Source: an uncultured Planctomycetota bacterium
GTDB taxonomy: Bacteria > Planctomycetota > Planctomycetia > Isosphaerales > Isosphaeraceae
Direction of reading: 5' to 3'
DNA length: 64,000 bases
Assembly (NCBI GenBank): GCA_963845755.1
Contig: CAWJTV010000034.1
Location: forward strand, 576,001 to 640,000
The position numbers were made by a program, and so were the translations under genes. Under the pieces are notes generated by a model that did no database searches, was not told the origin of the DNA, and saw nothing but the letters and a program-made list of their open reading frames with translations. Shown piece after piece: positions 25,485 to 46,502 of this stretch. Numbering within the stretch: the stretch's first letter is position 1; each line of letters starts with the position of its first letter.

Positions 25485-25653
25485 CGCGGCTCCTTCCTCC
25501 AAATCGGATCTCCGGTCTAATGAAGGCTCCCTCGAGGATACCGCACCAAAGGTTTTGTCGCGAGATTCCGCCTCTCGACAACGCGGCGCGTCTGGCCCAT
25601 ACTCGCGACAATCGCGGGCGTCCGTCCCGCATATTCTCGATCTGGGAGTCGCC

Positions 25654-26739: not shown

Positions 26740-26811
26740 GCCTGGTAGCCAAGAAACCGGGGTGGTAGAATTCCGTTTAGGCTGTCAAGAGGGCGGATCG
26801 GGGAGACGGTT

Positions 26812-27339: not shown

Positions 27340-27754
27340 GAACGTTACCTATGGTCAGCTCCGGAAGGTCTTGTTGTCCCTCGGTTGCGAACCGGTTCCC
27401 TCGAAGGAGAATCACTTCGTTTTCGATCACCCGAGGAGTAATCTTCTCATCATTCTCCGACGGGGTACCGACGACCAACTCGTGCGGCCCATGGACTTGT
27501 CGAGTGTTCGGAGTCAGCTCGTAGGTCATGGTCTGATCAAGGACGATGAAGAGGCGTTTGATTCACTTTTCCTGATCCGGAAAGGCGACCGCCTGATCTG
27601 GACCGACCCGAAGACCGGGAAGGAAGCGAAGGTCACGGCAGCGGCCGGAGAAAGCGATGGGTTAGTGGTCGTCAAGGAGAATGGTCGGCTGGTGCCATGT
27701 CCGGTCGATCAGGTGAAGCGGGTCAATCGCGCTGCGACGGCCAGCAGGAAGTGA
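27332..27754 (+). CDS. HicA-like domain plus small C-terminal beta-barrel domain, copy 1
   Basis: TYGQLRKVLLSLG...ENHFVFDHP fits the HicA pattern with His retained; overlaps the upstream gene by 8 bp. Confidence 0.55.
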   Translation: MVKNVTYGQLRKVLLSLGCEPVPSKENHFVFDHPRSNLLIILRRGTDDQLVRPMDLSSVRSQLVGHGLIKDDEEAFDSLFLIRKGDRLIWTDPKTGKEAKVTAAAGESDGLVVVKENGRLVPCPVDQVKRVNRAATASRK

Positions 27755-27804
27755 CAGGTTGGACGATCCGAAACTCGTGCCGGCAAAGGGATTGCGGAGG
27801 CAAT

Positions 27805-28332
27805 ATGGCGACGCCCGATGCGATGGACCGCATGCCGGAACGAACCCGAGAGCACGTCATCGCCGCCATGGGTTTCATCCATGTTCTGAAAGCATTCATC
27901 GACAAGGTGCATATAGGTGATCGACCCCGTGAGGACTACGGCTACGATCTGATCGCCACGACCTTCGACGAGAGCGGATACCAGGAGGACGGCGAAATCC
28001 GGGTCCAGATCAAGGCTACCGATATACTTGAGAAGTACCGACATAAGGGTTTCCTGGCGTGCGAGATCGAACGCAAGCATTACAACTTGTGGATGAATAC
28101 GGATATGCCGGTCTTTCTCATCCTGTATGACGCTCAGGAAAAGAGGGCCTATTGGCGATACGTGCAGCCGTATTTCGTCGCGGGATCGCGGCGAAGGCCG
28201 AAGGCAGGCACCAAGACAGTCACGGTCCGCATCCCTATGACCCATGAGTTCTCTGAGGACACAGTTGATTATATGCGGGCCAAGAAGGCTGCAATCCTGG
28301 CCCAACAGGGAAAGGTGATTCACCATGATTGA
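27805..28332 (+). CDS. DUF4365 PD-(D/E)xK-like protein, copy 2
   Basis: RTREHVI..EDYGYD..VQIKAT..PVFLILYDA..AYW; GGAGG before ATG at 27805. Confidence 0.8.
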   Translation: MATPDAMDRMPERTREHVIAAMGFIHVLKAFIDKVHIGDRPREDYGYDLIATTFDESGYQEDGEIRVQIKATDILEKYRHKGFLACEIERKHYNLWMNTDMPVFLILYDAQEKRAYWRYVQPYFVAGSRRRPKAGTKTVTVRIPMTHEFSEDTVDYMRAKKAAILAQQGKVIHHD

Positions 28333-28744
28333 GAAGATCACCTATGCAAAATTCCGCGAAGTGCTGTCGTCCCTGGGTTATGCCCCTGAAGAGTTCGGAG
28401 GCAATAGTGTCGTCTTCCGCAATCCCAAACACCGTTTAAGAGTCTTCCTACCGAAGCTCTCCGATAGGCAATTCGTGCCGCCTATCGAGTTGATGAGCGC
28501 CCGCAACAGTCTGATTGGAAACGGCGTCGTTCGCGATGAATACGGATTCGACTCGCTCTTCCTGATCCGCAAAGGCGACCGGTTGCTCTGGACCGACCCG
28601 GAGACCGGGAAGGAAGCGAAGGTCACGGCAGCGGCCGGGGAGAGCGATGGGTTAGTAGTCGTCAAGCAGAACGGCACGTTGTTGCCGTGTCCGGTCGATC
28701 AGGTGAAGCGGGTCAAGCGGGCCGCGACGGCCACCAGGAAATAG
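28325..28744 (+). CDS. HicA-like domain plus C-terminal beta-barrel domain, copy 2
   Basis: TYAKFREVLSSLGY..GNSVVFRNP (His absent); C-terminal half is nearly identical to copy 1. Confidence 0.55.
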   Translation: MIEKITYAKFREVLSSLGYAPEEFGGNSVVFRNPKHRLRVFLPKLSDRQFVPPIELMSARNSLIGNGVVRDEYGFDSLFLIRKGDRLLWTDPETGKEAKVTAAAGESDGLVVVKQNGTLLPCPVDQVKRVKRAATATRK

Positions 28745-28748
28745 CACG

Positions 28749-31700
28749 TTGGACGACCTTAACGCGGTGACAGCGGCCTGGCGCGAGGCAGCACGCGGGC
28801 TCTGTGGAACAACCGCCGGGATCCCGGTGGACGGCGCCGCGCGCACCGGCAATGGCGCGTCCGCGACCCTGGTGGACCGGCTCGATGCCATCGGGGAGGG
28901 GATCCGGCTGAGGCGCCGGCTCGATGGGCTGGTCCAGGATGAGGCGACCGAATCGAGCCGGCGCGCGGTGGTGTACCAGTTAAGCGACCTGCAACGGTCC
29001 GCGGGCGAGGAGCTGACCGGGTTGAGGCCCGGCACGGCCCGGCACCGTGAGGTCGCGACCCGCGCCCGGGAATGGCTGGCTGAGGCGCGGGTCGCCGTGC
29101 GGAACGCGCTGACCGTGCTCCAGTTCGAGCCGTTACACCAGGCCATGGCGCTGGAGGCGCTGCGGGCCGACCTCGAATGGTTGAGCGCCGTCGTGGCCCG
29201 GCTCGACGGCGAGGCGCCGCTGGCCCCGACGGTCTGGATGGACGTCGAGGTGGAGCGGTTGCGCAGCTCGCTGAGCCCGCCGGACGGCCGGCATCCCGAT
29301 CCGCAAGATGAGCCCTTGTGCACCCGTTGCGAACGGATGAAGGCGGGACTGCTGGAGCGTCGAGTCCGTCGCGAGCTGGCCCGGCCGATGTTCGGTGCCA
29401 GTCCTGAGCCGCTCTGGATCCAGCGGTTCCACCTGTCGCGGCTCCAGGCCCAGGTCGCCGCCCTGGACCTGGCCGCGGACGCAAACCTCAGCCCCGCGGG
29501 CGTTTCCGAAAAGCCCGGCGATTGGTTGGAAGACCTGAGCCGGCGTCGCGTCGAGCTGGCCGCCGCGGCCGACGATCGCATGGCGGCATTGCCGCCGTCC
29601 GGCCGCCGCGAAGCCTCCACCGCGATCATCCCGGCGGCTTTCGACGAGGTCGGCGAGATCACGGCGTTCCTCGGCCAGATGCCGCCCCGCCGCGCCGTCC
29701 GCCGGCTGGAGCTCGCCGAGGAGGACCTGGGTCGGCTCGCCGAATCGTGCCGGCGCTGGGCCAGCGACGCCGCGCGCGGCTCCGACCCCCCGTCCCACCC
29801 CGATTCGCTCCGGCCGACCGGGAGTGCGGACATCGCGGCGCCCGCCGATGACCCGAACGCCAGTTCGATCGGCATCGCGGAGGAGGCGGACGAATTGTCT
29901 CGGACCGACGATCGTGCCGAGGCACGCGAGGCGGCCGCGCTCCTGCGGCGCCAGTCTCGCCGGGTCGATCGCCTCGCGCCACGGGTCCACCGAGAATGGC
30001 AGGAGACGCTGTTGAATCTCCGCCTGACCTCGCTCCTCGGCCGCCGCGTGGTGACCTTCCTCGAGAACCTGGTACTGATCCTGATCCCGGTGCTCATCGG
30101 GCTCATCGCCGCCGAGTATCTGCTCGAGAGATCGCATCCGCTCTCGGCCGCCCAGCACCGGTTCTTCGCCTGGGCCGATCTGGCCGTCTGCTCGGTGTTC
30201 CTCCTCGATCTGGGCCTCAAGCTCTGCCTGGCTCCGGATCGGTTGGCGTACTTCCTCCACCACCTGGTGGTCAACCTGATCCCCTCGCTCCCGTTCGGGT
30301 TCGTCTCCCACGAGATCGACCTGGCCGACCTCGGTACGGCGGCGGCCAGCGAATCGGGCACTCTGGAAGTCCTGGCCGAATACGGACGGATGGCCCAGGT
30401 GCTCCGTTTTGCCCGGCTGGTGCTGCCCATCGCCCGACTCACACGGGTGGGCCTGATCTTCCTGAGACTGAGCGATCGACTGGTCCGCCGCATGGCCGTC
30501 CTGCTCAACCGCAATATCATCCTGTTCGAGCCGTCAACGACGCAGAAGCCCGAATCCAGCGATCGGCACCGACTGCTGGCGATCCGGAGCGAGCTGGAGC
30601 ACGCCCGAGCGGCGATCGAAAGCCGGCTTGACCGGGAACAGCGCAGGGAGCTGGTCGCCCGGGTCCTGTCCGACTTCGATGGCCTGATCCAGGGGCTGCC
30701 CGCCCCGGCCCTGGAGGGGACTCATCCGGACGAGGAGCAACGCGAGATCCCGGTCGAGGCGGTGGTCGAGCGGCTGATCCAGATGACTCCCGAGCGGCTC
30801 ATCGACCGGATGGGCCCGTCGTCCGTTCTCGCCGTGGACCGGTATCTCCGCCTGCTCAACGCCCCACTGATCCGCCGCCTGCCGCTGGCTCGAAAGCTAG
30901 CGAGCGTCCGCGAGAAGAGCCCGGCGGAGGCGGTGGCCCTGGCCGCCAACTACCTGGGTCACCTGATCCAGCGCGGGCTGGATGCCGCCTACTTCCTGGC
31001 CGACTTGCAGGGCACGCTCTCCCCGCCGGTCTTCCTCGACCGCCTGGGCGCCACGATCGTCAACGCCACTCGTACACCGGCCAAGCGGCTGCTCTGGCTC
31101 GGCTCCGCCTGCTTCATCCTGTTCCTGATCGTCAATGTCGTCGCCTTCCCGAAACCGATCGTCCGGGTGGTCAACAAGATCCAGACCTTGCTCGGCTGGC
31201 CGGTAATCGTCCTGGGCGTGATCTGCCTGGCCTTGTGGACCCTGGGGGCGTGGTTCCGCAAGATCGCCAACCAGGCGGCCGATTTCAGCGAGCGGATCGT
31301 GGAGGCGCAGTTCGCCGCCCATACCAAGAGCTTGAAATCCCGGCGCCGCGATCAGGATGCCCAGTTCCTGGCCGAGCGAGTCATCGACCCGGAGCTGCTC
31401 CTCCGTTCCTCGGACGATCGGATCGTGATGCCCGCGGGCTCGGGCGAGGCCGAGGCGGCCGCGCGGTCCGGCTGGGTCCTCTTCGAGAACCGCGAGCTGG
31501 CGTTCTTGCGGAACGTCCGCCTGCTGTACCAGGATTACCTGGACGGCTCGCCGCTGCACCGCAGCGACACCAAGGCCTCGATCCAGCTCCTGGGCAACCT
31601 GGCGCTGACCAACCTGCGGCGCAGCCATCTCCGGCACCTGCTGCGAGAGAGCCGAACGCTCGACCGTCTCGACCTGAGCCGGTCCGGCGGCCTGTTCGGC

Positions 31701-33376
31701 GGCCCCTACCTCTGGTTCAACTACATCACCCGGATGCTCGTCCAGGAAACGGCGATCCTGATCCTGGATTATAATCGTCACGCCGTGCCGATGGACCGGC
31801 TGGCATGCTCGCCCGAGTCGGTCCGCCGCGCGTTCCGCACCTGGCTGGCCCACCGGATGAAGATCGACCTGGCCGACGTCTGGCTGCCGGAGTCGGTGAA
31901 ACCCGCATCGACGGGGGCCCCTGTCGCGTCGGCGTCGGTCTCCCTCGCGAGTTGCGAGGGACTCGCGGCGCCCCGCGTCATCGCCAGCCGGCCAGCGATC
32001 GGATCCAATCCCGGCAGCCACGGCGGGCGGCGTCGGGAGGCCGAGGCGTTCCTGGAGACGGTCGAGTTCACCGCGGTCAACTTCCTCGCCGACGACGCCG
32101 ATCGCGACACCGAGATCCGCTCCCGGTTCGGGCCCCAGGTCGCCGAGCTGGTGCGGCGCGACCGCCAGCAGAACGTCCGCCGGGCCTTCCGGAGCTTCCC
32201 CCTCCACGAGCTGCCGACCTCCTCACGAACGATCAACCCGTACAACCTCTACGAGACCTTCCTCTCCGGCGGCCGGGTCGCTCTCCTCCCTGTCTTCGTG
32301 ATCGGGGCCCTGGCCCGCGTCCTGGGGTTGGCGGTGAGGAGCGTCTTCCGCGTCGTTCACGAGATCCTCCATCCCCAGGTCGACCAGGATCGCACCGTCC
32401 CGCCCGACACTTACTGGGCAGCCCTGCGGAAGATCCACCGCATGCGCAAGCCGGTGTTCATGGGATCGCTCTGGCTGCGGGCCCGCTTCGACGTGGAGTA
32501 CCTGGGCTTGGCCCTGCCCACGGCACCGCCGGGGATCGCCGCCGAGTCGCTGATGGAGGCCGACCTCGATTACATCGGCGCGACCCGTCAGGACCGGATC
32601 ATCGCCGAGCAGGTCCGGCGCGAGCATCACGAGCGGCTGGAGTGGATCACCGGCTGGCTGCACCAGTTCGTCTGGACCTTCGATGAGTTGCCGAACTACC
32701 TGCGCGCGAGATCCCCTTCCTGGCCAATCGCGGGGGCGAGGCGCTGCGGGCGCTCATCACCGCCTGCGTCCTCGACCACGACGACATCGCGACGCTCGCC
32801 CTCTCGATCGAAGGGCTCAAACGAGTCCTGGCCCAGGCCGCCGATGCCGCGCAAGATCCCCGGCTGCTCCCCGCCGACCTCCCCGAGCCGATCGTCGGCC
32901 TCCGGACGCTCTGGCACCCGGTGCATCGCTGCCGGCGCCCCATCGGCGACCTCTTCGGACTCCCGTGTTTCCCGGCTTACGACTCGGCCCAGAGGACCCG
33001 TATCACCCGATATCTCCGCCGACACCGCCGCGCCGTCCGGGGCTGGATCAAGGTGGTCCTCGGCCAGGGCGGCCCCGATCCCTGGGCGACGGTCAAGGCC
33101 CGGATGCGCGACGTCATGCTCCGCACCGACCTCTGGAGCGACCAGATCCTGGTCCTCCGCGCCGTCCAGAGCTTGACCATGCTCGACGTCCAGCACAACT
33201 GCGAGCTGGTCTGGGCCCTGGGCGGTTACACTAGCCCCGAACCGGGAGGCGCCGAGCCCGAAGCCAGGCCCCCCGCCTCCCTCCTTCGCCGTGACGACGA
33301 CGAGGCACCGAACACGCCCGCCGCACCGGATGGCTCGATCTCATCCGGCCAGGAAACGTCGTCCGTAATCGCATGA
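28749..33376 (+). CDS. Very large membrane protein with an ion-transport/voltage-sensor-like S1-S4 module (frameshift near 32705)
   Basis: 1475-aa ORF continued by the frame of ORF 32921-33376; FLENLVLILI..DLAVCSVFLLDLGLKL..NLIPSLPF..LRFARLVLPIARLTRV. The start position is uncertain. Confidence 0.65.
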
Positions 33377-33730
33377 GGGAGAGCCAAACCCGAGGTCTCC
33401 GACGAGCGAATCCGTCGATCCGCCTCTCGGGACGATCCTGCCCGGGATTGTGGGAACGGTCGGGACCCTCGCGGTCACGGACACGTATTCCGACCCCCTG
33501 GGCGGGAATATCGCCTTCCAGCTTGTCGGCCCGAACTCCATATCGCTTCTGGACGTCACCGGCGCCGCTTCACTCACCGACTCGATGTTCGACGTCAGCC
33601 AGATGGACGGGTTCCAACCCACCAGCGGTGAGATCTTCGAGATCATGACGTCGGCCGGCCTGGGCGTGGCGATGTTCATGAATCCGATCTTCCAGGTCGG
33701 GAACCTCACGTGTACTGCGTCCTACATCAA

Positions 33731-35624
33731 CGCCGATTTTCGCGGAGGGAAATCGACTAACACTCCTGGCCTCATCAGCCCGTGCCAGCGTAGGTGAAGC
33801 GGAGCGTCCTGCCACCGGCCCAGGGAATCGCTCCGGCTTTGGCGTCGAGCCCCGCTTGCCTCAGGATCGGATTGTGCGACCGCCTCTGGAAGTGGACATG
33901 GATCTGGTCTCTTGTGACGCGAACCGTCCCACCCGTCTCGATGATCTTGCGGCAGAGCCGCTTGGGCTTCGCCTCGGCAAAGCCGTCCAGTTCGCTCGCC
34001 AGCCAGCGATAGCACCCATTGGCCAGGACCGTCAAGGCCGCGTCCAGGTCGGCGTTGAGAGGGACTTCGCTGGCCAGGCAGTCAAGATGGAAGAAGTTGA
34101 CGCCGCTACCCAGGGAATCCTCGATCCCGTTGCGGCTCGTATAGCGCGTGATGATCTGCCGAGCCGTTGCCTCAAGATTGTTGCTCAAGACGAGCGTGGG
34201 TTTGTCTCGCCCCAATCCGGTGATGGCGATCTGCCGCAATCCCCCCTCGTAGTCGGCGACCCGGATGGTCTGCTCAAGATCTCGGATGTTCCGATGTCGG
34301 CGGTGCGGGGTGTCGATCACGGTGCGTCGCCATGCGGATGGCGGCTGCTTTTCCAATCCCCGGAGGATCCGGCTGCCTCGCCGTCGGATGGTGATGAACC
34401 AGGTCTTACCACGGAGGTTGAGTCGGTTCATCTCGGCGTAGGTCGTGAGCCTCGAATCGAAATAGACCCAGGTGGGATCCGCGCCAGGATCGACCGGCAG
34501 AACTCGACGAATTTCAGCAATTGTCCCGGGGCTCCGTCGCGGATGACGGTGGCGTCCGAGTAGCACAACAGCCGGGATTTCACGGCTTGAGCGAAGAACG
34601 TGAGGATGCTGGGGACGGCTTTACCACGCATCGGCACATAATGATTTTCCAACCCGGTGTCCTCGCCGCGATGCGGCACGGAGTGGAAGTCCAGGCTGAA
34701 CGCCTCCGGCGCGGGATCCAGCCGCGGCAGGAGCCGGGAGACCCATCCGGCGAGCAACTGTCGTTGATTCTCCCGGACCGTGCGGTACGAATAGTCGGTG
34801 GCGAAGGTCGCCTTGGGCAAGATATTCAAGCCGGCGAAGAGCCCCAGGGCCTCGTCGAAATTGAAGTCGCTGATGTGACTGCGTCGTTCCTTGTCGATCC
34901 GTTTCAGGGCCAGCAGACTCCACAGGGCCGAGGTGGCCGGGACCATGTCGGATCCGGGATAACCGGCCTGCTTGACCAGGTCGTCGAAGCCCAGTTGCAC
35001 CAGGAGCGGCCAGAAGGCGAAGAGGCCCGCGACGCGGGTCTCCAACGGCGCCGTCATTTCCTGGAACGAGCAGTTCCGGACATCGGCGACGGGGGCGGTG
35101 AGTGGAAGGCACGAGCGATCGCGATCCGTGCGTGATGGCCTGCCGACCTTCGGCTTGTGAAAAAGGGGGGAGGCGAACCGGAGTGGATCGCGCTCCGAAA
35201 CTGATGGACCAGTTGCCGGATGCTCCCGTGCGTATAGCCGTATCGGTCAGCGACGTCGTTCTGGCGAAGGCCGTCAACGAAGATGGCGCGCAACGCCTCG
35301 TATTGGCGGTGATAGGTCGCGGAATCCGCATCCGTGAAGAACTGGCGGCAAGAGGTATCCTCCATGGCTGCACTCCGAGTGTGAGGTGGTTTTCAGCGAA
35401 GTCCTCCTCTCAACCGTCGTATCAAAATGGGAGGCCTGGGGCCAAGCGGGAGGGTACTCGAAGCTTGGAAAAAAGGGAGAGACGGCGGGATCGACCAGTC
35501 ATCCAGCAGGATCACTCGGCCACGGCCGCTGAAAACCGGCTAACACGAGCCGGAGCCGGATCGCGGGAACACGCTGATCCTGCACCGAGAACTGTGAGTG
35601 AATTTCCCTCCGCGAAAATCGGCG
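33731..35624 (-). mobile_element. 1894-bp insertion sequence (DDE type, family not assigned)
   Basis: Perfect 23-bp TIR CGCCGATTTTCGCGGAGGGAAAT at 33731-33753 and 35602-35624; 4-bp target duplication TCAA at 33727-33730 and 35625-35628. Confidence 0.92.
33775..35365 (-). CDS. Transposase: N-terminal HTH plus DDE domain, in three frames (shifts near 35165 and 34485)
   Basis: HRQYEALRA..VADRYGY HTH; FSLDFH, VYFDSR and YTSRNGIED supply candidate D, D and E; lies between the TIRs. Confidence 0.82.
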
Positions 35625-36436
35625 TCAACAATGATACGGACGTCCTGCTCACCGTCAGCGGCAGCGCGGTGCTGGAGCCGGCATCGCTCGTGATGCTCGG
35701 CCTGGGCGTCGCGGGCATCGCGGTCTTCATGGCTCGCAAGTCCCGATTAGCGGGTCGAAGTTGAGGCAGTTTGGGACGACGACGCAGTCTCCCGAAGAAT
35801 AGAAATCCGCAAGATTTTTATGTCTCAGTCGGGCCAAGAATTGCGCCGAAAAATCGGGCCAATTCTCCGATAGGTGCATTAACCGAATTCCAAACCTGCG
35901 GCATACTGATTAGAGGGGGATGGCGCGTGCGCGAGCGGTCTGGTCTGGCTCGGCCCGTTGTCCCCGTCTCAGGTAGGCTCTCCTCCCATCTTCACCGACG
36001 ACGGTTCTCGCTCTGGCCGACCCTGCCGCAGGTCGAGGACCGTGCACCCTGCGCCGGAAACCCGCCGAAACGTTGCCAACGAGTGCAAGTTGGTGACACA
36101 GGTTTTCCGCCCGAAATCCAATGAGAAAAAGGATTTAATTCAAGACGAGTCGAACTGGGCCGAAAGCGCGAGAGTGCCAGGGCCCGCGGCTGTGCCACGT
36201 TCCTGGAAAAGCCGGCCTCAGGATCACTCGGGCTCTGAACGCACAGACCCATCGGCCGAACCTGAATCGTTGCAAGCGAACCATAATGATCTCGTGGAAC
36301 GGGCGAGTGCGGCCTTTTCACCGCTCAAACCTGGCGCCGCCGAGACAACTCGAAAGTCCGGCCGGTCGGTCGTCACTCGGCAGCGGGATGGCGCGATGTT
36401 GCGGAACTCTTTGGGGAAAGCGATGCGCCGGGATGC

Positions 36437-36465
36437 TTGACAAGGTAGGAGCGATTCTCTAAAGT
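36437..36465 (+). promoter_or_regulatory. Sigma70-type promoter for tex
   Basis: TTGACA-17 bp-TAAAGT, about 160 bp upstream of the ATG. Confidence 0.55.
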
Positions 36466-36623
36466 GACCGAACTTATTTGTCAGCCAAGTACCTCCGTGC
36501 GCTCGAATCTTTGGACTGCCAGCGAAACGAGATGCCTCCGGGGCGATGGTTTTGAGTTGGTTCGCTGAGCCGTCCTCCATCTCATCGCCGCCCGAAACTC
36601 ACCAGGTGCAGAGTAGAGTCTCC

Positions 36624-39600
36624 ATGGACAACCCGATCCAGGTCAACCTGGGGCGCATTGCGCAGGACCTGCAAATTCGGCGCGTGCAAGTGGAGAGTGT
36701 CGTCCAGCTCCTGGACGAGGGGAATACCGTCCCCTTCATCACTCGCTATCGGAAGGAACGGACGGGCAACCTCAACGAGGTGACGATCCGGGAGATCCAG
36801 CTCCGGGTGCAGCGATTGCGCGAGTTGGCCGACCGCAAGGAGACGATCCTCAAGGCGATCGAGGCCCAGGGGAAGCTGACTCCCGACCTGACCGCGGCCA
36901 TTCGCGCGGCCGACAACCCCAAGCGGCTCGAAGACCTTTACCTGCCGTTCAAGCCCAAGAAGCGCACCAAGGCGTCCGACGCCCGCGAGCGGGGCCTCGA
37001 GCCCCTGGCCTTCCGGATCTGGACCCGCGACGACACCCTCGCCGACCTCGACGCGGCTGCCCAGGAGCTGGTGAACGCCGAGAAGGGCGTCGAATCGGTC
37101 GAGAAGGTCCTGGAAGGTGTCGGCCATATCCTCGCCGAGGCGATCAGCGAGATGGCCATGGTCCGCGACGCCGTGCGCAAGGTCGTGTGGAAGACCGGCA
37201 AGATCGTCACCAACAAGGCCGAGATCCCGGAAGGCCAGGGACTCGAGTACCGCGATTACTTCGACTACTCCGAGCCGGTCGCCCAGATTCCGCCTCATCG
37301 TGTGCTGGCAATTAATCGTGGGGATAAGGAAGGGCCGCTGAAGGTGAAGCTCGAGGTATCCCGGCCCGATGTGGAGGCCGTGCTTTTCACCCAGCTCCCG
37401 CTGGATGGCCATCCGCAGGCCGAGCTGTTCCGCGCCGCGGCGATCGACGCGCTGGATCGGCTGATCCTCCCGAGCATGGAACGCGAAGTCCGACGCGACC
37501 TGACCGAGGCCGCCGAGAAGCACGCCGTCGAGGTCTTCGCCCGTAACCTCGGCAGCTTACTGCTCCAGCCACCGATCCCGAAACAAGTGGTCCTGGCCGT
37601 CGATCCGGGGTTCCGCACAGGCTGCAAGGTCGCCGTGCTCGATCCGAGCGGGAATCTGCTGGATCAGGTGGTCATCTTTCCCCATCCTCCCCAGAATCGT
37701 CGGTCCGAGGCCAAGGTGGTGCTCAAGGACCTGGTGGGCAAGCACCATGTGAACGTGGTGGCAATCGGCAACGGGACGGCGTGCCGTGAGACCGAGGAGT
37801 TGATCGCCGAGATCATTGCCGAGGGGACGCGTTTTAGTCAGGGTGAAGGCGCCGCGGCCCCCGAATCCCCGCCCGAGATTGCCGAAATGCTCGCTCTCGT
37901 GGAGGAAGGTGCTGGCGAGTCCCGCACGGCGGCCGCAACGTCCGACGACGAGGTCGCCCCGGGCGAGGAGTCGAGCATCCCGGCGGAGCCTGCAATCGAT
38001 CCTGCCGGCGAGCCGGCGTTCGCAGTGGTCAGCGACCAGACGTCTCCCGACAACAGCGAGTCGGATCCGCCAATACCAGCGGAGCCCGCCCCGGACGAAC
38101 CGATGGCGTCGGAGGAAAACAGTCTCGGGAATGGGTCTGGCGGTGACTCGCACGCGCGGGCGGAAACGCATACCTCGACCCCGACGGAAGCGACGGTCCA
38201 GATGCTGCCGCCGATTTCGGGAGGGGCCCTGGACGCCGACCCCCCGTCAACCGAACCCGAAGGCGGATCCGAGGCCGGACTGCACGAACCACCTTCGACG
38301 GAAGGTGTATCCACCGCTCTGATGGAAGGAGCCGGGACGGGCTTCGGCGACCCGGGCGCCGCACGATCGCAAGAGGAGCCCGCCGCAGCCGAGCCGGTTT
38401 CGACCGGCGACCACCAACCTGCCCCCTCGGGGGCGGCTCCGGAACCGACCGCGGTCGGTCCGATCGAGGGGCAAGACGCAACTGCTGTCCCGGAAGCCAA
38501 CCATAGAGAGGCCGCAGGCCCGGACTCGACCAGTGAGTCGATCTCCCCGGCGGCCGCGGATCTCGGCGAGATGACCGCTGAGCCGACTCCTACCGGGGAC
38601 CATCAGCCGGTCCCATCAGCAGAGTCGACTCCGTCTGCGCCGACAGACGAGTCGTCGACGATTTCCGCTCCGAGCGAGGCAACGTCCAGTGTCCCGGTCG
38701 GATCCGCGGCGGCGCCCGGCGGTCGGCCTCCTCGCCAGGGCCGCGGTGGCGGCCAGGGGAAATCGGAGTCTCGTCGGCCGCCTCGTGCTAAGCCCTCCGC
38801 GACCCCACCCCCTCCGCCATCGCCCCCGCAGCCGCACCCGGCCGACGCCTTGCTCGCCCAGCTTGCCTACGTGATTGTGAACGAGGCCGGGGCCAGCGTT
38901 TACTCGACCAGTCAGGTCGGCCGCGACGAGCTGCCGGACTCGGATCCGACTTTGCGGAGCACCATCTCGATCGGACGACGACTCCAGGATCCTCTGTCTG
39001 AACTGGTCAAGATCGAGCCCCAGAACATCGGCGTCGGTCTCTATCAGCACGACGTCAATCCTAAGCAGCTCAAGGAAACGCTCGAGTCGGTCATCTCGAG
39101 CTGCGTCAACTTCGTCGGGGTCAACCTGAACACGGCGAGCGTTCCGTTGCTTCGCCATGTCTCCGGCCTCAACCAGTTGACGGCGCGACGGATCGTCGAA
39201 TTCCGCATGGAACACGGCCCCTACCGACGGCGCACTCAGTTGACGGAGGTCGAGGGGGTTGGCCCGGCGACGTTCACGCAGGCCGCTGGCTTCCTCAAGC
39301 TCCTCGATGGCGAGGATCCGCTGGATCGCACGTGGGTCCACCCCGAGAGTTACCCGGCCGCCATGAAGCTGGTGGAGAAGTTTGGATTCACGCCAGAGGT
39401 CGTGCGAGACAAGGTAAGCCTGCCCGAACTGCGCACGCAGTTGACCCAGGCCGACGTCCCGGGTCTGGTCACGGAGCTGGAGATCGGCGAGTTCACGCTC
39501 CGCGACATCATTGAAGCGCTCGGTTCAACCGGATCGCGACCCGCGCGATGACTTGCCCAAGCCGATCTTCAAGAAAGGCGTGCTCAAGCTGGAGGACCTC

Positions 39601-40545
39601 ACCGCCGGCATGGAGCTGAAGGGAACGGTCCTCAACGTCGTGGATTTCGGCGCGTTCGTCAACATCGGCCTGAAAGATTCCGGGCTGGTCCACATCAGTC
39701 AACTGGCCAACCGGTACGTCAAGAGCCCACACGACGTCGTCAGCGTCAGCGACGTGGTAACAGTGTGGGTCATGGGTGTGGACCAGGAACGGAAACGGGT
39801 CTCACTGACCATGGTCAAGCCGGGTACAGAACGGCATCGGGGCGCCCCGAGTGGCGGCCGTCGTGGTGGCGGCCCTGGCGGCGATCCTCGAGACCCGAAC
39901 CGCGAGCGTGAGCCGCGCGGCGGGCCGCCTGGCCAGGGGCGTCGCGGTGGCCCCGGCGGCAACCGTGGTCCGCGTCCGACCGGCTCCGCGCTGACTTCCC
40001 CGCCGGTAGGTGCCCCTTCGGTCGCGGTCCTTGCCGAGACGCCGTCTCGCCGGTCAGATCGGGATCATGGTCGCGGCCCGGGACCGGGTCCCGGCGGCGG
40101 CCCGCGCGCTGGCGAGGCATCCGGCGCAGGACCGGCTCCTCCACGGTTTGGCCGTGGACCGGGTTCCGGTGGTGGTCCGCCTGGCTCGAGAGGCCCTCAG
40201 CATGGTCACGGAGGCGGCCGGCCACAGCGGTACGATCGCGATCGCATCCAGGATCGAGGAGCACCCCCACGGTCGCCCAGCCGTCCCTCCCGACCCAGCT
40301 CACCGCCGCCCCCACTCTCCAAAGATGCCCTGGCCGGCAACGTCCCGCTCCGAACCTTCGGCCAGCTCAAGCAACTCTGGGAAGCCCGCGTTGAAGGGCC
40401 CGAGTCAGCCGATGTCCCTCAGTCGGAAGCCGAGACCGGGCCGTCCTCCGCTCAGGTTCAATCTCCGCACGAGTCGCAACCCCCCGATTCGACCAATACC
40501 CCAGTGACCCCGGCCGAGCCGGAGCCGCCGTCGAACCCCAACTAA
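36624..40545 (+). CDS. tex: Tex family RNA-binding transcriptional accessory protein with a large internal insertion (frameshift near 39525)
   Basis: LLDEGNTVPFITRYRKERTG, LEDLYLPFK, DPGFRTGCK, IGNGTACRET, VNEAGASVYS, IGVGLYQHD, and the S1 domain NVVDFGAFV..GLVHISQL. Confidence 0.93.
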
Positions 40546-40790
40546 GCTCGCCGCGTATCCACATTGAGACGGGACGTCCATCTGCCCTACCATGGCGATT
40601 GTGCAATGTTGAATGGAGTGATGCATTTGCATAAGACCCTCTGGCGGAGCCGGCCGTCGAATTGCTCACCTTGGGTGAATTGGTGGGAGCCGCTATAATT
40701 TCGGAAGGTGATTGCTCGCGGGTGGCTTCCGCACACCGGAACCCCTTCGAGATGACCGGGTATCGATGGTCTGCTGAGGATAGATCGGTA

Positions 40791-41996
40791 ATGGGTGTAT
40801 TCGCCTGGCGGAACTTGCTCACACGGCCGCTTCGGACGATCTTGGCGTTAGTGGGGTTGTCGATCCCGATCCTCGGTGTATTAGGGCTGTTCTGCGTCTC
40901 GAACGGTTTGCGGAATCTGGTGGGTGAGACCCTGGGCGGAATTGAGGGGTTGATCGTACTGGGCGATAACCAGCCCAGCCCGGTCTTCAGCACCATCCCC
41001 GCGACCCTGGCCGACGAACTGAGGCGGATGCCCAAGATTCGGGCGGTCGCACCGGAGGTCTGGGGGATCGCTCCGTCGATCGAGGGATGGGGCATGATCT
41101 CTGGTCTCTTCTCCGGGAAGAAGACAACAATCTTCGACCAGCCGGTGATCGCCGGCCAGGAGATCGTCGCTCATCAGAATCTCCGCAGCGCCGTCTTCCC
41201 GAGGGCACTCCGGGAGCACGGTGAAGGACGATTCCTCCTGCCCAGCGATGAAGGTCAGCCGAATATCGTCATCAGCCGCAAGATCGCCCGCGATCACCCC
41301 AACGCTCAGGGCCAGCCCAGGAAAGTTGGCGATTCGCTGGATATCGGCGGCAAGCCGTTCCGAATCGTCGGCCTCTATGAAACGGGCTCGATGCTCCTGG
41401 ATGTTGTGATCCTCATGGACATCGGGATGGCGCGAAGCGTCTTGAATCGGCCTCCCGGGTCGGTCTCCTGCATCTATGTCGAGGGAGAAGATCCCGTGGA
41501 TAACACCGCACTCTCCGCGGCGATCGAGAAGGCTCATCCCAGCGTCAACGCCCGGAGTATGCGAGAGGCGCAGGCCAATTTCAGCTCCTTGTTGGGACAA
41601 GTCGACACTTTCTTACTGATGACGGTCAGCCTGGCCCTCATCGTGGGGATCGTCGGCATCATCAATACCATGCTGATGAGCACGACCGAGCGGTTCACCG
41701 AGTTCGGCGTACTCCGCACCAACGGCTGGTCTCAGGGCAACATCCTGACGCTGGTCACCCTCGAGAGTGCCTATCTGGGTCTACTCTCCGGTCTGGTCGG
41801 CTGCGGCCTGGCGTGGGCCGGCATCCTGGTGGCCAATCAGTTCATCTCCGGGGGGATGCACCTGGACTTGACGCCCTCGCTCGCGGCGCTAGGCATCGGA
41901 CTGTCGGTCGCAATGGGCATGCTGGGCGGATTGTATCCAGCCTGGAAGGCCGCCCGGATGGTCCCCATGGAGGCGATCCGGTTGGGATCGCATTGA
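40791..41996 (+). CDS. ABC transporter permease (MacB/FtsX family)
   Basis: AWRNLLTRPLRTIL, GIINTMLMSTTER..EFGVLR, GGLYPAWKAARM.P.EAIR. Confidence 0.9.
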   Translation: MGVFAWRNLLTRPLRTILALVGLSIPILGVLGLFCVSNGLRNLVGETLGGIEGLIVLGDNQPSPVFSTIPATLADELRRMPKIRAVAPEVWGIAPSIEGWGMISGLFSGKKTTIFDQPVIAGQEIVAHQNLRSAVFPRALREHGEGRFLLPSDEGQPNIVISRKIARDHPNAQGQPRKVGDSLDIGGKPFRIVGLYETGSMLLDVVILMDIGMARSVLNRPPGSVSCIYVEGEDPVDNTALSAAIEKAHPSVNARSMREAQANFSSLLGQVDTFLLMTVSLALIVGIVGIINTMLMSTTERFTEFGVLRTNGWSQGNILTLVTLESAYLGLLSGLVGCGLAWAGILVANQFISGGMHLDLTPSLAALGIGLSVAMGMLGGLYPAWKAARMVPMEAIRLGSH

Positions 41997-42001
41997 ATCT
42001 T

Positions 42002-42166
42002 GGCAGTAGGCAGTCGGCGGTGAAAACCGGGACAGGAAGTCGGATTCGGAATCTTGCCGCACTTTGAACTGCGGTCGCTGTACTCTATGAGGATCGTTCG
42101 AGGGGAGAAAGACCACCAGGCAGACTGAAAAACTTCCACAATTCCTCCTACTGCCTACTGCCTACC
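42002..42166. repeat. Inverted short heptamer runs (AGGCAGT / ACTGCCT) bracketing the intergenic spacer
   Basis: GGCAGTAGGCAGTCGGCGG at 42002 and CCTACTGCCTACTGCCTACC at 42147. Confidence 0.55.
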
Positions 42167-42186
42167 ATTTCGCGAGAGGTCTCCCG

Positions 42187-42897
42187 ATGATCGATGTGAG
42201 GAACGTTCATAAGTCCTACCAAAGCGGCAGTCGTTGGGTCGAGGCCTTGCGTGGGGTCACTTGCGAGATCGAGCGAGGGCGATTCGCATTCATCGTCGGA
42301 CCGAGCGGGTCGGGCAAGAGCACGCTCCTCTACCTCATCGGGTCCCTGGACCGTCCGACGTCGGGCGAGATCATCGTCGAGGGTCAGAATCTCGTCACGA
42401 TGTCGGCGGCCGAACAGAACGCGTATCGTCGCGACCAGATCGGCTTCATTTTCCAGTCATTCAACCTGATCAGTAACCTGACGGCGCTGGAGAACGTGCT
42501 GGTCCCGTTCCTGCCGCGGGGCGTGTCGGCGGAACAGCGGCAGAGGGCGATCTCCTTGCTGAAAGATGTCGGCCTGGAGGATCGCATCGATCACCGGCCG
42601 TATCAGCTCTCCGGCGGCGAGCAGCAGCGGGTGGCGATCGCCCGAGCGCTGGTCAAGCAACCCGTGCTCATCCTCGCCGACGAGCCGACCGGCGAGCTGG
42701 ACTCCAAATCCGGAGACGAGATCTACAGGATCCTTCGCAGGCTCCAGGAAGCCTCGGGGACCACTTTGGTCATCGTGACCCACGATCGCCGATTCATCAC
42801 CGCCGACGACATGGTCCTCGAGATCCAGGACGGTCAACTCGCCAACGGGCAAGACTCCGAAACCGTGGATTACTCGGCCGCGTTGAGCCCGCGATGA
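42187..42897 (+). CDS. ABC transporter ATP-binding protein (LolD/MacB-like)
   Basis: [35 protein letters not shown]. Confidence 0.95.
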
Positions 42898-42925
42898 CCT
42901 TCATCGGCATGAGCGGGTTTTGTCA

Positions 42926-43909
42926 TCACAATCGCAAGATCACCTTGCCGAAGACCTGATTGGATTCCATCCGCTCCTGGGCGGCATGAACATCTTTGAA
43001 CGCGAAGGTCGAATCGACCACGGGGCGAACCGTTCCGCGAGCCAGCCAGGGGACGACCTGTTCGGCAAACTGCCGCGTGGCGGCGATCTTCTCTTCGAGC
43101 GGCCGAGCTCGGAGCGTGGTCCCGACGATCGTCAGCCGTTTGCGAAGCATCAGGTTGAGGTCGAACGGGGCATTGGTGCCCCCCAGCAAGCCGACGAGCA
43201 CCAAGCGGCCCTTTGGTGCCAGCGCCGCAAGGTTTCCCGCAAGCGCTGAGGCGCCGATCAAGTCGATCACGACGTGGACCCCCGCACCGGCGGTCTCAGA
43301 CCGGACCACCGCGGCGAAGTCCTCACGAGCGGTATCGATCCCGTGATCCAGCCCCAGGAGTGCCGCTTGATCGAGCTTCGCCGTGGTCCGCGACGTGCCA
43401 AACACAGTGCAGCCCATCGCGTTGGCAACCTGGAGGACCGCCGTTCCGACGCCGCTGCCTACTGCGTGGATCAGGACGCGCTGGCCCGGCGCGAGACGAC
43501 CTTGGGTCAGCAAGGCGTCGTGCGCGGTAATAAACGCCTCGGGAACGGCCGCGGCCTCCACGAAATCCAGATTCGTCGGGATCGGCACGACCAGGCGCTC
43601 GTGGGTCAGGACGAGTTCGGCTTGCCCGCCACCGCCGACGATCCCGAAGACCCGGTCGCCCGGCTTCAGCGAACCAGTCACATCCGGACCCAGAGCATCG
43701 ACCTCGCCGGCGTACTCCAGTCCGGGAATGTCCGCCGGCACTCCCGGCGGTGCGGGATACATTCCCCGGCATTGTAAAACGTCGGCCCGGTTCAACCCGC
43801 ATGCCCGCACTCGGACCCGCACCTGCTCGCCCTTCGGTTCGGGCGTGGGGACGTCGCGAAACTGAAGCACTTCCGGTCCGCCGATGCCCGTGATGACGAT
43901 GGCTATCAT
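42926..43909 (-). CDS. NAD(P)H:quinone oxidoreductase, PIG3/MDR family
   Basis: GLNRADVLQ..G.YPAP..IPGLE, VLIHAVGSGVG, IVGTTLRAR, GKVIL. Confidence 0.92.
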   Translation of the reverse strand: MIAIVITGIGGPEVLQFRDVPTPEPKGEQVRVRVRACGLNRADVLQCRGMYPAPPGVPADIPGLEYAGEVDALGPDVTGSLKPGDRVFGIVGGGGQAELVLTHERLVVPIPTNLDFVEAAAVPEAFITAHDALLTQGRLAPGQRVLIHAVGSGVGTAVLQVANAMGCTVFGTSRTTAKLDQAALLGLDHGIDTAREDFAAVVRSETAGAGVHVVIDLIGASALAGNLAALAPKGRLVLVGLLGGTNAPFDLNLMLRKRLTIVGTTLRARPLEEKIAATRQFAEQVVPWLARGTVRPVVDSTFAFKDVHAAQERMESNQVFGKVILRL

Positions 43910-44245
43910 GGGGATGTCATTTCGTTGGGGTCGTCAAGACTGCGCTAACAGATCGGCCCGCACAAATCCTCGGACTCCGAAGAGGCTCATGTCGGGAAAT
44001 TGGTGGTGGCCTATCCTGTCGTGGCGGATGACAGCCGGACAACGCGCCTGAAGGCCCTCGGAGACCAGGTGTTCGGCCCGCGGTGGCCGGCGGTTTGGCC
44101 CTGGCCAGTCTGGTGTCCCACCGAATTCCCCCCATGCGCCACTCCTCAATCCGATCGTGCGGTCCCCCTCTGTTCCACGCGGGTTTACAATGTCATGATG
44201 GTCCAAAGATCATGGTATTTGCTTCCTGAGTGATAACCAAGCCAC

Positions 44246-45079
44246 ATGCTGACGAAGGATCCGGAGTTATTGGATTGGGATCCCGAAACGGACGTGCCTG
44301 CACTCGCGCCCGCCGAGGTTCGAGTCTGGGTCGTCGAACTCGATGCCGGTCAGGCGCCGGACGATGACCCGGATGCCGCCGAGCCCGGTCCGGAGCTGGC
44401 GATCCTCTCGGAGGACGAACGGGCTAGGGCCGCGCGGTTCGTCCGGGCGCGGGACCGGCGTCGGTTCGCACGCTGTCGCGCCGCGCTCAGGGAGATCCTC
44501 GGCCGTTTGCGGGACGAGCCAGCCAGCTCGCTGCGATTCCGGGCGGCGGCGGTGGGCAAACCGGGGCTGGATGATGGCCCGGGCGATCATCATCCCGCGC
44601 TGCGATTCAACGTCTCGCATTCGTCGCACCTGGCGCTCATCGCCGTCTGTATCGGGCGTGAGGTCGGAGTTGATATCGAGCGGATCCGGCCCATCTCGGA
44701 GGCGGTCCGGATCGTCGAGTCCTTCTTCACCGCGGCCGAGTTTGCTGAGTTCACGGCGATCGCCGAAGACGCCAGACTCATGGCCTTCCATCGGGGGTGG
44801 ACGCGGAAAGAGGCGGTTCTGAAGGGATTCGGGACGGGGATTTCCGGCCTGTCTGCGCGGCACGAGACGGGGTTCGGCTCGACTGCGCTGACGCCTCGGT
44901 TCACGCCCGCGTCTCCGTCGCCTCGAGTGGATCGGTGGATGCTGTGGGAAGCCGCGCCGCGGCCGGGATTCGTCGCCGCGCTGGCCGTTGATCAGGGGTG
45001 TGCCGCCGGACCGGAGCCAACCGGTGACCAGTCGCCGGCGCCGGATGGCTCGTTGCCCGCGCCGCCCGGGAGACCGTAG
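44246..45079 (+). CDS. Sfp-type 4'-phosphopantetheinyl transferase
   Basis: GKP, FNVSHS, VGVDIE, WTRKEAVLKG.G.G. Confidence 0.92.
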   Translation: MLTKDPELLDWDPETDVPALAPAEVRVWVVELDAGQAPDDDPDAAEPGPELAILSEDERARAARFVRARDRRRFARCRAALREILGRLRDEPASSLRFRAAAVGKPGLDDGPGDHHPALRFNVSHSSHLALIAVCIGREVGVDIERIRPISEAVRIVESFFTAAEFAEFTAIAEDARLMAFHRGWTRKEAVLKGFGTGISGLSARHETGFGSTALTPRFTPASPSPRVDRWMLWEAAPRPGFVAALAVDQGCAAGPEPTGDQSPAPDGSLPAPPGRP

Positions 45080-45186
45080 ACTAGACAGGACGGCCGCGAG
45101 GCGCGGCGCCCCTGCGGTCCTTGCGGATCGCTCGCACGCGCCGCCGGGCTGCCGAGACGTGGCCGGAAAGGCGGGTTCAGCGACCC

Positions 45187-46020
45187 ATGGAACTGGTCGT
45201 CCTCGGTCTGATCGTCCTGCTGCTGTACCTGTTCATCCGGCTGCTGACATCGTTCAGCGCCTGGATGAGTGGGGCGCGGTATCGGGCCTACCGTCATCTC
45301 GCCGTGCAACATCACGGCCGGTACGAGAGCCGGGGGCTGTCGGACCCACCCACCGTCAGCTTTAACCACAACGGGTCAACGATCCGGGTGGGCCTGGCGC
45401 CGACGGTGGCCGGTCAGCCGTCCCAGGTCCCTCGGACTCGCGTCGTTGCGCGATTCGGCCGCGGCATCCCGTTCCGGCTCGAGCTGGCTCCTGTCGCCCG
45501 CCCGGCCCCGCCTCAGGCGCCCCGGGGAACCCGGTTGGTCAAGCTCGGCGACGCGGCGTTCGACCGCGCCTTCGTCGCCCAGGCCAACGACCTGGAAATG
45601 GCCCGCGACTTCCTCGGCACTCGGGTGCGAGGCTCCGTCGGGAACTTGCAGCGAATGGTCCATCCCGGCGGGATGCTGGTTTCGATCAACCCCGAGCGGA
45701 TGCTCGTCCAGATCGACCGCAACCTCGGTCAGAGCGTTGAGGCGCTGGGCGCAGCGGTCAAGGAAGCCCTGGTCATTCACGATGGGCTGCTCGATGGCGT
45801 GTTGCGACGCATGAACCAGGGGATCGCGATCGTCGACCAGCCGGACGCCTGGGTCGAGGACACCGGCCCTCCCATCTGCAAGGTCTGCGGCGAGCCGATC
45901 CAGGCCTGCGCCGTCATCGTCTGTGCCTCTTGCAATACGCCTCATCACCGCGATTGCTGGGAATACGTCGGCGCCTGCTCGATCTACGGCTGCAACGGGA
46001 AAGTCGGTGTGACGGAGTAG
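45187..46020 (+). CDS. Membrane-anchored protein with C-terminal prokaryotic RING finger (Prok-RING_1-like)
   Basis: N-terminal TM MELVVLGLIVLLLYLF; C-terminal CKVC-x11-CASCNTPHHRDCW-x5-CSIYGC. Confidence 0.8.
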   Translation: MELVVLGLIVLLLYLFIRLLTSFSAWMSGARYRAYRHLAVQHHGRYESRGLSDPPTVSFNHNGSTIRVGLAPTVAGQPSQVPRTRVVARFGRGIPFRLELAPVARPAPPQAPRGTRLVKLGDAAFDRAFVAQANDLEMARDFLGTRVRGSVGNLQRMVHPGGMLVSINPERMLVQIDRNLGQSVEALGAAVKEALVIHDGLLDGVLRRMNQGIAIVDQPDAWVEDTGPPICKVCGEPIQACAVIVCASCNTPHHRDCWEYVGACSIYGCNGKVGVTE

Positions 46021-46085
46021 GACGTAGCGTCCGCTTTCGCGACGTATTTCACCGTGGTCTCCTCGTGGGAAATGGAGATATCCCC

Positions 46086-46502
46086 ATGAATTCGCCGCGA
46101 CGAAGCCGATTCGTCATTCTGTCGTTCGTACTGGCGTTCCTGTCGATCGCCCCAGCCGCGCCCGACGCGCCGCCCCAGCCCTCGCCGCTGGCCAATGCCC
46201 GGTACCAGTCGGCCCTCAAGCAGTACGAGATTGCCTGGTCCTATTATCAGCAGGCCCGGATCGACTCGTATCAGGTCTACGTCTGGTCGCGGCTGATTGT
46301 GGACTCGCGCCGCGACCAGAGCAGCAAGCCGGCCGACCGGATCGCCGCCCTGGAGGAGCACCTCGACCGGATGAAAAAGCTCGAGACTCTGATCATCAAG
46401 ATCCGACGTCTGGGTTTCGGACGGTCGTCCGACGTCGGCGCTTCGGAGTATTACCGCCTGGAGGCCGAGGTCTGGCTGGACCAGGCACGAAGCGGACGGT
46501 AG
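46086..46502 (+). CDS. Hypothetical secreted helical protein
   Basis: Signal peptide RRSRFVILSFVLAFLSIAPA; GGAG RBS. Confidence 0.6.
   Translation: MNSPRRSRFVILSFVLAFLSIAPAAPDAPPQPSPLANARYQSALKQYEIAWSYYQQARIDSYQVYVWSRLIVDSRRDQSSKPADRIAALEEHLDRMKKLETLIIKIRRLGFGRSSDVGASEYYRLEAEVWLDQARSGR

What the first reader, a model, noticed from the sequence alone, without database searches (positions are those of the whole stretch)
45187..46020. Membrane-anchored RING protein: candidate E3 for the Ubl system
Seen: an N-terminal TM and a C-terminal CxxC..CxxCxxxHHxxCW..CxxxGC. Known: Prok-RING_1 domains were described in association with prokaryotic E1/E2/JAB systems. Inference: this may be the E3 missing from the operon 23 kb away. 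With the TM-anchored JAB it suggests tagging of membrane substrates. It is not co-operonic, so the link is unproven.
Basis: partly seen in the sequence, partly recalled or inferred. Interest (0 to 1): 0.7.

Follow-up and report, generated by a model that had tools for sequence, protein, structure and literature searches.

The report
Displaced membrane RING ligase of planctomycetes
This gene encodes a membrane-anchored RING-finger protein whose counterparts in dozens of related planctomycetes sit directly in front of the ubiquitin-like tagging genes that lie 23 kb away here, so it is likely that system's tag-attaching ligase, a kind of protein predicted in 2011 for which I found no test in bacteria.

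Summary
45187-46020 encodes a 277-aa protein with one N-terminal transmembrane helix, a middle domain, and a C4HC3 finger above the Prok-RING_1 cut-off. In 121 genomes of the family, full-length orthologues occur in 107 and the E2 orthologue in 105; 102 have both. In 55 of the 102 (35 genera) the RING gene lies directly upstream of Ubl-E2, and genus g50 lacks both. A same-genus genome keeps the order RING-Ubl-E2-E1-JAB; here a single rearrangement, an inversion relative to that genome, separates them. The modelled finger is RING-like. The modelled middle domain resembles mycobacterial TtfA (Z 14.8) and eukaryotic CCDC47 (Z 13.7), both partners of membrane-protein machines. Best reading: the cognate membrane E3, with that domain likely capturing membrane substrates. 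E3 activity is inferred, not shown. The class was predicted by Burroughs et al. 2011, and this scan noted the same system before, on other genomes and on this window. New member of a known kind.

The parts
45187..46020 (+). TM - TtfA/CCDC47-like (DUF3137-related) domain - Prok-RING_1 protein, 277 aa; likely E3
45193..45249 (+). N-terminal transmembrane segment, residues 3-21
   Evidence: hydropathy 2.72; helix 2-41 in the model
45319..45816 (+). Middle alpha/beta domain, about residues 45-210; predicted TtfA/CCDC47-like fold
   Evidence: Foldseek 6t84 E 4.6e-7; VIA Z 14.8 (6t84), 13.7 (7tut_4), 11.0 (9i78_4); DUF3137 at E<=0.01 in 60 of 91 homologues, not in this protein itself
45877..45993 (+). 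C4HC3 zinc finger C231-C269, Prok-RING_1
22320..22619 (-). YukD-like ubiquitin-like protein ending PEVVAG plus a 2-residue tail (precursor, inferred)
   Evidence: PF08817 49 bits; PE[VI]VAG with a variable or absent tail in relatives
21296..22183 (-). E2 (UQ_con) with HPN motif, catalytic Cys, W-x-P loop and a low-complexity tail
19889..21211 (-). E1 (ThiF family)
18484..19902 (-). JAB peptidase with two predicted TM segments
23300..46500 (.). Block inverted relative to same-genus genome G046; its ends separate the RING gene from Ubl (left break within 23224-23865, right break just after 46486)
46086..46502 (+). 138-aa gene of unknown function; lies between RING and Ubl in 3 of 15 relatives examined
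   Evidence: (no family)
13534..18474 (-). M48 peptidase (frameshifted, 17057-18474) and MMPL-like transporter (frameshifted, 13534-16609); frequent downstream neighbours, probably a separate module
   Evidence: the MMPL label is from my reading of the sequence, not from a family scan

Best explanation
This protein is a membrane-anchored RING-finger protein that likely serves as the E3 ligase of the Ubl-E2-E1-JAB operon at 18484-22619, from which an inversion-type rearrangement likely separated it. Shown: the domain order, conservation of the zinc ligands, co-occurrence with the E2, and the gene order RING-Ubl-E2(-E1-JAB) in relatives. Inferred steps: (1) the JAB trims the Ubl precursor to its conserved PEVVAG end; (2) E1 adenylates it and passes it to the E2 cysteine; (3) the RING protein sits in the inner membrane with its C-terminus in the cytoplasm, as TtfA does; (4) the finger binds the E2~Ubl through the conserved V233 and Y267 positions against the E2 W-x-P loop; (5) the TtfA/CCDC47-like domain with the TM helix holds a membrane protein whose cytoplasmic lysine receives the Ubl; (6) the TM-anchored JAB reverses the tag. 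Near-core retention across the family points to a standing job in regulating or triaging membrane proteins rather than a mobile defence island (inference).
For: Prok-RING_1 over cut-off. RING orthologue in 107 of 121 and E2 orthologue in 105 of 121 genomes; both 102, neither 11, including all 8 of genus g50. Five g50 genomes of 93-98% completeness show no Prok-RING_1 and no Ubl match. RING is directly upstream of E2, same strand, <=2.5 kb, in 55 of 102 genomes from 35 genera, median gap 586 nt. Ubl fills that gap in all 15 such loci examined (chosen for adjacency), whereas the other neighbour, the PPTase gene, is beside RING in only 5 of the 15. Same-genus G046 has RING-x-Ubl-E2-E1-JAB; window 44271-46486 and 23224-21295 are 97 nt apart there. 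Among 300 other genomes of the phylum, all 6 with an E2 at E<1e-50 are among the 8 that have a middle-domain-plus-finger homologue. The finger model (pLDDT 82) returns mostly RING/U-box entries in its top 50 structural matches, Z 3.9-5.2. Position 233 is V/I/F and 267 is Y/F in 91 of 91 homologues. The E2 keeps HPN, the Cys and W-x-P; that these are the RING-contact loops is from my knowledge of UbcH5, not from a call. The second E2 of the genome falls in a separate, well supported clade (100/99) and has its own two RINGs. TtfA residues 1-205 (TM plus this fold) bind the multipass transporter MmpL3 (bioRxiv 10.1101/581447, passages read).
Against: No activity data. Structural Z-scores for the finger are low, and ZZ domains score within 1 unit. 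Foldseek gives no E<=0.001 and ranks PHD fingers first; 33 of 91 homologues hit PHD weakly. The residue after the last Cys is not a conserved Arg (G 52, Q 14, R 10 of 91), so the canonical RING linchpin (recalled) is absent. In the 6 distant genomes the E2 operon has no RING gene within the contig stretch fetched, and the one JAB read in full there is a 190-aa protein with no C-terminal extension. Two genomes, G003 (92% complete, 600 contigs) and G011 (84%), have the RING but no E2, Ubl or JAB match; three other RING-only genomes do hold the JAB. Related genomes are not independent. Bil systems conjugate without a dedicated E3 (PMC10557695, passages), so an E3 is not obligatory.
Confidence: 0.72

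Rival explanations
1. It belongs to the system, but the finger is a PHD/ZZ-like reader or scaffold that binds a peptide, the Ubl or the JAB and localises the enzymes at the membrane, without activating E2~Ubl.
For: C4HC3 order and CxxC-x4-H spacing resemble PHD; Foldseek's first rows are PHD fingers; ZZ domains tie with RINGs in the whole-protein search; no linchpin Arg.
Against: PHD matches cover only about 30-36 columns in the best rows, whereas RING/U-box chains align over 44-55 of 56 residues and fill most of the top 50. A review states that C4HC3 is the prokaryotic RING arrangement (PMC11354881, one passage).
Confidence: 0.13
2. It is mainly the target or membrane anchor of the Ubl: it is modified itself, and the tag regulates a TtfA-like cofactor job on a transporter such as the neighbouring MMPL protein.
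For: TtfA-like fold and topology; an MMPL gene lies within 12 kb of the E2 in 47 of 105 genomes.
Against: Genus g50 lacks RING and E2 yet keeps M48-MMPL. The 6 distant E2 operons show no MMPL or M48 nearby. The cytoplasmic part of this protein has only three lysines.
Confidence: 0.07
3. It is an E3 of an anti-phage conjugation system that tags phage proteins at the membrane, like Bil.
For: Uncharacterised bacterial Ubl/E1/E2/RING operons are predicted to be antiviral (PMC10557695 discussion passage).
Against: Present in 107 of 121 family genomes, mostly as one copy at 40-94% identity, in a conserved neighbourhood, unlike patchy defence islands. This rival differs only in substrate and does not exclude the best explanation.
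Confidence: 0.05
4. In this genome it is uncoupled from the operon, or serves the second E2 on contig C11.
For: It lies 23 kb away on the opposite strand; a second E2 exists.
Against: Gene intact and 94% identical to the operon-linked copy in G046. Most family genomes have only the first E2 type. Ten other genomes keep both genes on one contig after separation.
Confidence: 0.03

Closest known systems
Prok-RING_1 (PF14446) proteins of prokaryotic Ubl/E1/E2/JAB operons, Burroughs, Iyer and Aravind 2011 (Mol Biosyst 7:2261; paper not held; seen only through citing passages in PMC4197634, PMC10557695, PMC7159879)
   Same: Finger family over cut-off; planctomycete operon with Ubl, E1, E2, JAB; membrane anchor (that bacterial members have TM helices is recalled from the Pfam entry).
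   Different: Here displaced from the operon. It carries a middle domain with a predicted TtfA/CCDC47-like fold; I cannot tell whether the 2011 paper covers this architecture, and databases already label some homologues 'Prok-RING_1/DUF3137'.
Archaeal Caldiarchaeum E1/E2/RING cascade (operon described in PMC4197634, passage; reconstitution paper seen only as a reference title)
   Same: Five-gene set Ubl, E1, E2, RING, JAB.
   Different: That system uses eukaryote-like ubiquitin; here the Ubl is YukD-like with a single conserved Gly, and RING and JAB have TM segments.
Bil and Bub bacterial ubiquitination systems (PMC10557695, PMC11601603, passages)
   Same: Ubl, E1, E2, DUB conjugation logic.
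   Different: Bil has no dedicated E3 and is antiviral; this system has a RING gene and is near-core in its family.
TtfA (PDB 6t84) and CCDC47 (7tut_4; 9i78_4, identified as CCDC47 by its residue range in PMC12572126 methods; 7tut_4 by inference)
   Same: N-terminal TM helix followed by the same predicted globular fold: Z 14.8 over 161 residues (rmsd 3.8) and Z 13.7 over 223 (rmsd 6.2).
   Different: 8-14% identity; no sequence-level match to either in the PDB profile search; neither has a RING; a shared fold shows no shared function.

Membership tests
Prok-RING_1 (PF14446) | Score above the curated cut-off | tested here: met
   36 bits vs 29.1; 91 of 91 homologues match at E<=0.01
Prok-RING_1 (PF14446) | Eight conserved zinc ligands in C4HC3 order | tested here: met
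Prok-RING_1 (PF14446) | Genomic association with Ubl/E1/E2/JAB | tested here: met
   55 of 102 adjacent, 102 of 107 co-occurring; not adjacent in this genome
RING-type E3 ligase | RING-like three-dimensional fold | tested here: inconclusive
   Predicted model only; RING/U-box entries fill most of the top 50 at Z 3.9-5.2 with ZZ within 1 unit; Foldseek has no E<=0.001
RING-type E3 ligase | Conserved E2-contact hydrophobic residues | tested here: met
   233 is V/I/F and 267 is Y/F in 91 of 91; their mapping to the E2 face is recalled, not shown
RING-type E3 ligase | Linchpin Arg after the last Cys (common, not universal; recalled) | tested here: not met
   N in this protein; G 52, Q 14, R 10, K 4 of 91
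RING-type E3 ligase | Stimulates Ubl transfer from E2 to a substrate | not testable with these tools
   needs a discharge or conjugation assay
PHD finger | Pfam PHD score and full-length PHD fold | tested here: inconclusive
   no PHD hit for this protein at E<=0.01; weak hits in 33 of 91 homologues, best E 1.1e-4; partial structural matches
DUF3137 (PF11335) | Pfam match | tested here: inconclusive
   none in this protein or genome; 60 of 91 homologues at E<=0.01, best 4.9e-9
TtfA / CCDC47 globular domain | Same fold after an N-terminal TM helix | tested here: met
   predicted model vs 6t84 E 4.6e-7, Z 14.8; next unrelated fold Z 7.4
TtfA / CCDC47 globular domain | Binds an MmpL transporter or a translocon | not tested
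Bil anti-phage system | No dedicated E3; antiviral activity | tested here: not met
   RING gene linked to the operon in 55 of 102 genomes; antiviral activity not testable; PADLOC not scanned

The most novel reading that the evidence does not exclude
A bacterial counterpart of ER membrane-protein triage: an E3 built by fusing a RING to a TtfA/CCDC47-like membrane-protein chaperone domain recognises multipass inner-membrane proteins (newly made or faulty ones, possibly the MMPL transporter encoded beside the operon) and tags them reversibly with a YukD-like Ubl, as housekeeping in a whole planctomycete family.
Probability: 0.2. Interest if true: 0.82.

Novelty: new member of a known kind. Interest (0 to 1): 0.43.

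Why it matters
My paper searches found no experimental test of a RING E3 in a bacterial Ubl operon; a 2023 preprint still calls such operon families uncharacterised (PMC10557695). This subfamily is a clean test case: mostly single-copy, near-core in a family that has cultured members, and paired with one specific E2 by gene order and joint loss. The predicted TtfA/CCDC47-like domain names a candidate substrate-binding module and points to membrane proteins as targets. The class itself was predicted in 2011 and this scan has noted it in at least 11 genomes, so the surprise is moderate.

Tried and rejected
RING(222-277):E2 complex prediction with two Zn gave no verdict: 0.53 against a control at 0.45; not used either way. 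Sequencing runs: five with shares of 0.05-0.08, no RNA holder listed; laid contigs were short scattered pieces and none bridged the right-hand break, so I cannot say whether the inversion is real or a misassembly. Burroughs 2011 and the 2012 review are not held; their text and supplements may already show this operon and architecture. M48 and MMPL as fixed parts of the system: rejected as obligatory, since g50 keeps them without RING or E2 and distant operons lack them. Inverted paralogues of a Gly/Tyr-rich PDZ-type gene (23737-24406 and 46703-47773) as the recombination site: only 116 nt at 75% identity, and the left copy lies inside the block colinear with G046; unproven. The right flank beyond 46.5 kb had no colinear match in G046 45-125 kb, so more than one event is possible. 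Promoter scan uninformative. Atlas search returned only Prok-RING_1 clusters. PDB profile searches matched only the finger, best a cellulose-synthase RING at E 5.7e-4. No paper joining DUF3137 with RING/ubiquitin or TtfA with CCDC47 appeared in the listings. Scan look-up by sequence found nothing.

Full report
Observation. The ORF at 45187-46020 (+) encodes 277 aa. Pfam Prok-RING_1 scores 36 bits against a cut-off of 29.1. A homology search found 702 proteins at E<=0.001; all 120 listed carry PF14446, one is named from Isosphaerales and several are labelled Prok-RING_1/DUF3137. A profile search of 50%-identity representatives found 705 at E<=1e-10, many matching over the whole length. The putative zinc ligands C231, C234, C246, C249, H254, C257, C264, C269 and W258 are invariant in 33 rows and nearly so in 91 diverse homologues. 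The gene is real and conserved.

The operon in the window. On the minus strand lie a YukD-like Ubl (22320-22619), an E2 (21296-22183), a ThiF-family E1 (19889-21211) and a JAB (18484-19902). The Ubl ends PEVVAG-SI; relatives keep PE[VI]VAG with a variable or absent tail, the pattern expected of a precursor trimmed to a Gly (inference). The E2 keeps HPN, the catalytic Cys and a W-x-P loop in 33 rows. The JAB has two hydrophobic stretches. The genome also holds a second system: Ubl-E1-JAB on contig C36, and two Prok-RING_1 genes next to a second E2 on C11. The finding's protein is the only full-length member of its architecture in this 88% complete genome.

Linkage. I searched 121 genomes of the order (one family, 53 genera) with the RING protein and with the E2 core. 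I counted as orthologues the best matches at E<=2.3e-45 for the RING and E<=6.1e-46 for the E2, and dropped the finger-only hit in G065 and the second-type E2 hit in G064. RING 107, E2 105, both 102, RING only 5, E2 only 3, neither 11. Of the 102, 55 from 35 genera have the RING gene directly upstream of the E2 on the same strand within 2.5 kb (median gap 586 nt), 3 within 10 kb, 11 elsewhere on the same contig (this genome included), and 33 on different contigs. In 15 adjacent loci examined, chosen for adjacency, the Ubl lies between RING and E2 in all 15, E1 follows in 13, and the PPTase neighbour is present in only 5. All 8 genomes of genus g50 lack both; five of them, 93-98% complete, also show no Prok-RING_1 and no Ubl. 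Of the five RING-only genomes, three hold the JAB (two of them near a contig end), and two (G003, G011) show no Ubl, E2 or JAB; these are fragmented or incomplete assemblies but stay unexplained. G004, counted as E2-only, has a partial RING homologue by the wider profile. Kin are not independent, so no P value is given.

Outside the family. Among 300 other genomes of the phylum, 6 have an E2 at E<1e-50 and 8 have a middle-domain-plus-finger homologue; the 6 are among the 8. In those 6 the operon holds Ubl, E2 and JAB (E1 seen in 4) with no RING, M48 or MMPL in the stretch fetched, and the one JAB read in full is a short 190-aa protein. So co-occurrence extends beyond the family but adjacency does not.

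Why it is 23 kb away here. In same-genus G046, window 44271-46486 maps to 96442-98648 and window 23224-21295 maps to 98745-100649, 97 nt apart; window 23865-46486 is colinear and 1973-23224 reversed. Inverting one block therefore restores RING-(138 aa gene)-(small membrane gene)-Ubl-E2-E1-JAB. The joined order occurs across 35 genera, so the split is likely the derived state. A palindromic repeat with many copies in the genome sits at 23358-23482 near the left break. Reads could not test the junction, and frameshifts in several neighbouring genes suggest an error-prone assembly, so misassembly is not excluded; in that case the gene would simply be co-operonic.

Structure. The full model (pTM 0.69) shows a helix 2-41, a confident domain 45-210, a disordered linker and a less confident finger. 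The middle domain matches TtfA (Foldseek E 4.6e-7; Z 14.8, 161 residues, rmsd 3.8) and chains of two multipass translocon structures (Z 13.7 and 11.0), above YbjN/type III chaperone-like folds at Z<=7.4. The residue range of 9i78_4 fits CCDC47 (PMC12572126, passages). TtfA has an N-terminal TM helix and a cytoplasmic domain, and residues 1-205 bind MmpL3 (10.1101/581447, passages). The finger alone, from 54 sequences, models at pLDDT 82; RING and U-box entries fill most of the top 50 at Z 3.9-5.2, with ZZ domains close; Foldseek is not significant and lists PHD fingers first. Conserved hydrophobic positions 233 and 267 fit an E2-binding face (mapping recalled); the linchpin Arg is absent.

M48 and MMPL. 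A frameshifted M48 peptidase and an MMPL-like transporter follow the JAB. An MMPL match lies within 12 kb of the E2 in 47 of 105 genomes, further on the same contig in 16, on another contig in 38, and 4 had no strong match listed (93 weaker matches were not listed). With the TtfA-like domain this is suggestive, but g50 keeps M48-MMPL without the Ubl system, so the transporter does not need it. I treat MMPL as a candidate substrate only.

Mechanism and rivals. Most likely (0.72) the protein is the cognate membrane E3: the finger recruits E2~Ubl, the TM-plus-TtfA-like part holds a membrane substrate, and the TM-anchored JAB matures and removes the tag. Architecture and genomic coupling are shown; topology, E2 binding, activity and substrate are inferred. 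Rivals: reader or scaffold without E2 activation (0.13), itself the target (0.07), antiviral substrate (0.05), uncoupled here (0.03).

Prior knowledge. Burroughs et al. 2011 could not be read. Citing passages say related operons occur in Actinobacteria, Planctomycetes and Acidobacteria and are uncharacterised (PMC4197634), and that RING-type E3s are rare examples in bacterial operons (PMC10557695). I saw passages only of PMC7159879, PMC11601603, PMC11354881, PMC3417536, PMC10936438 and PMC7203096, and no supplements. Eight searches listed no experimental study of this RING type; most subscription papers are outside the library. The scan's notes hold 16 findings in at least 11 genomes on such operons, one on this window reaching the same displaced-ligase reading; I had recorded that reading before seeing them.

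Verdict. Observation confirmed; interpretation supported by genomics, untested biochemically. New member of a known, predicted kind. The TtfA/CCDC47-like domain is the added detail. Interest 0.43.

Noticed in passing
G217 and G300 (family f23), whole genomes: 36 and 39 matches to the RING-protein profile at E<=0.001, mostly finger-only in proteins of varied length, with one E2 found in G300 and none in G217: a possible many-E3, one-E2 expansion.
   Followed up: no
L006:7843-11905 (G000 C11) and L105:4910-7137 (G000 C36): Second Ubl system of this genome in two pieces: zinc-ribbon/TM gene, two Prok-RING_1 genes (one apparently fused to a trypsin-like protease, frameshifted; label from reading the sequence) and an E2 on C11; Ubl-E1-JAB on C36.
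   Followed up: partly
window 23358-23482: About 125-nt palindromic repeat with many 93-97% identical copies across contigs, at the left inversion break.
   Followed up: partly
window 23737-24406 (-) and 46703-47773 (+): Two related Gly/Tyr-rich genes in inverted orientation near the two breaks; the right one has a PDZ domain, the left one stops just after the start of the matching stretch.
   Followed up: partly
window 13534-18474 and 36546-40545: Frameshifts in the MMPL-like, M48 and Tex genes; likely assembly errors.
   Followed up: no
window 23009-23187 (-): Small membrane-protein gene upstream of the Ubl, conserved in G046; resembles DUF1328 (recalled, not scanned).
   Followed up: no
window 26812-28332 and 28749-33176: Two DUF4365 genes followed by a 1475-aa ORF with no Pfam match; colinear in G046.
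   Followed up: no
window 2027-5861: A zinc-ribbon repeat protein and a second M48 peptidase fused to TFIIB-type zinc ribbons.
   Followed up: no
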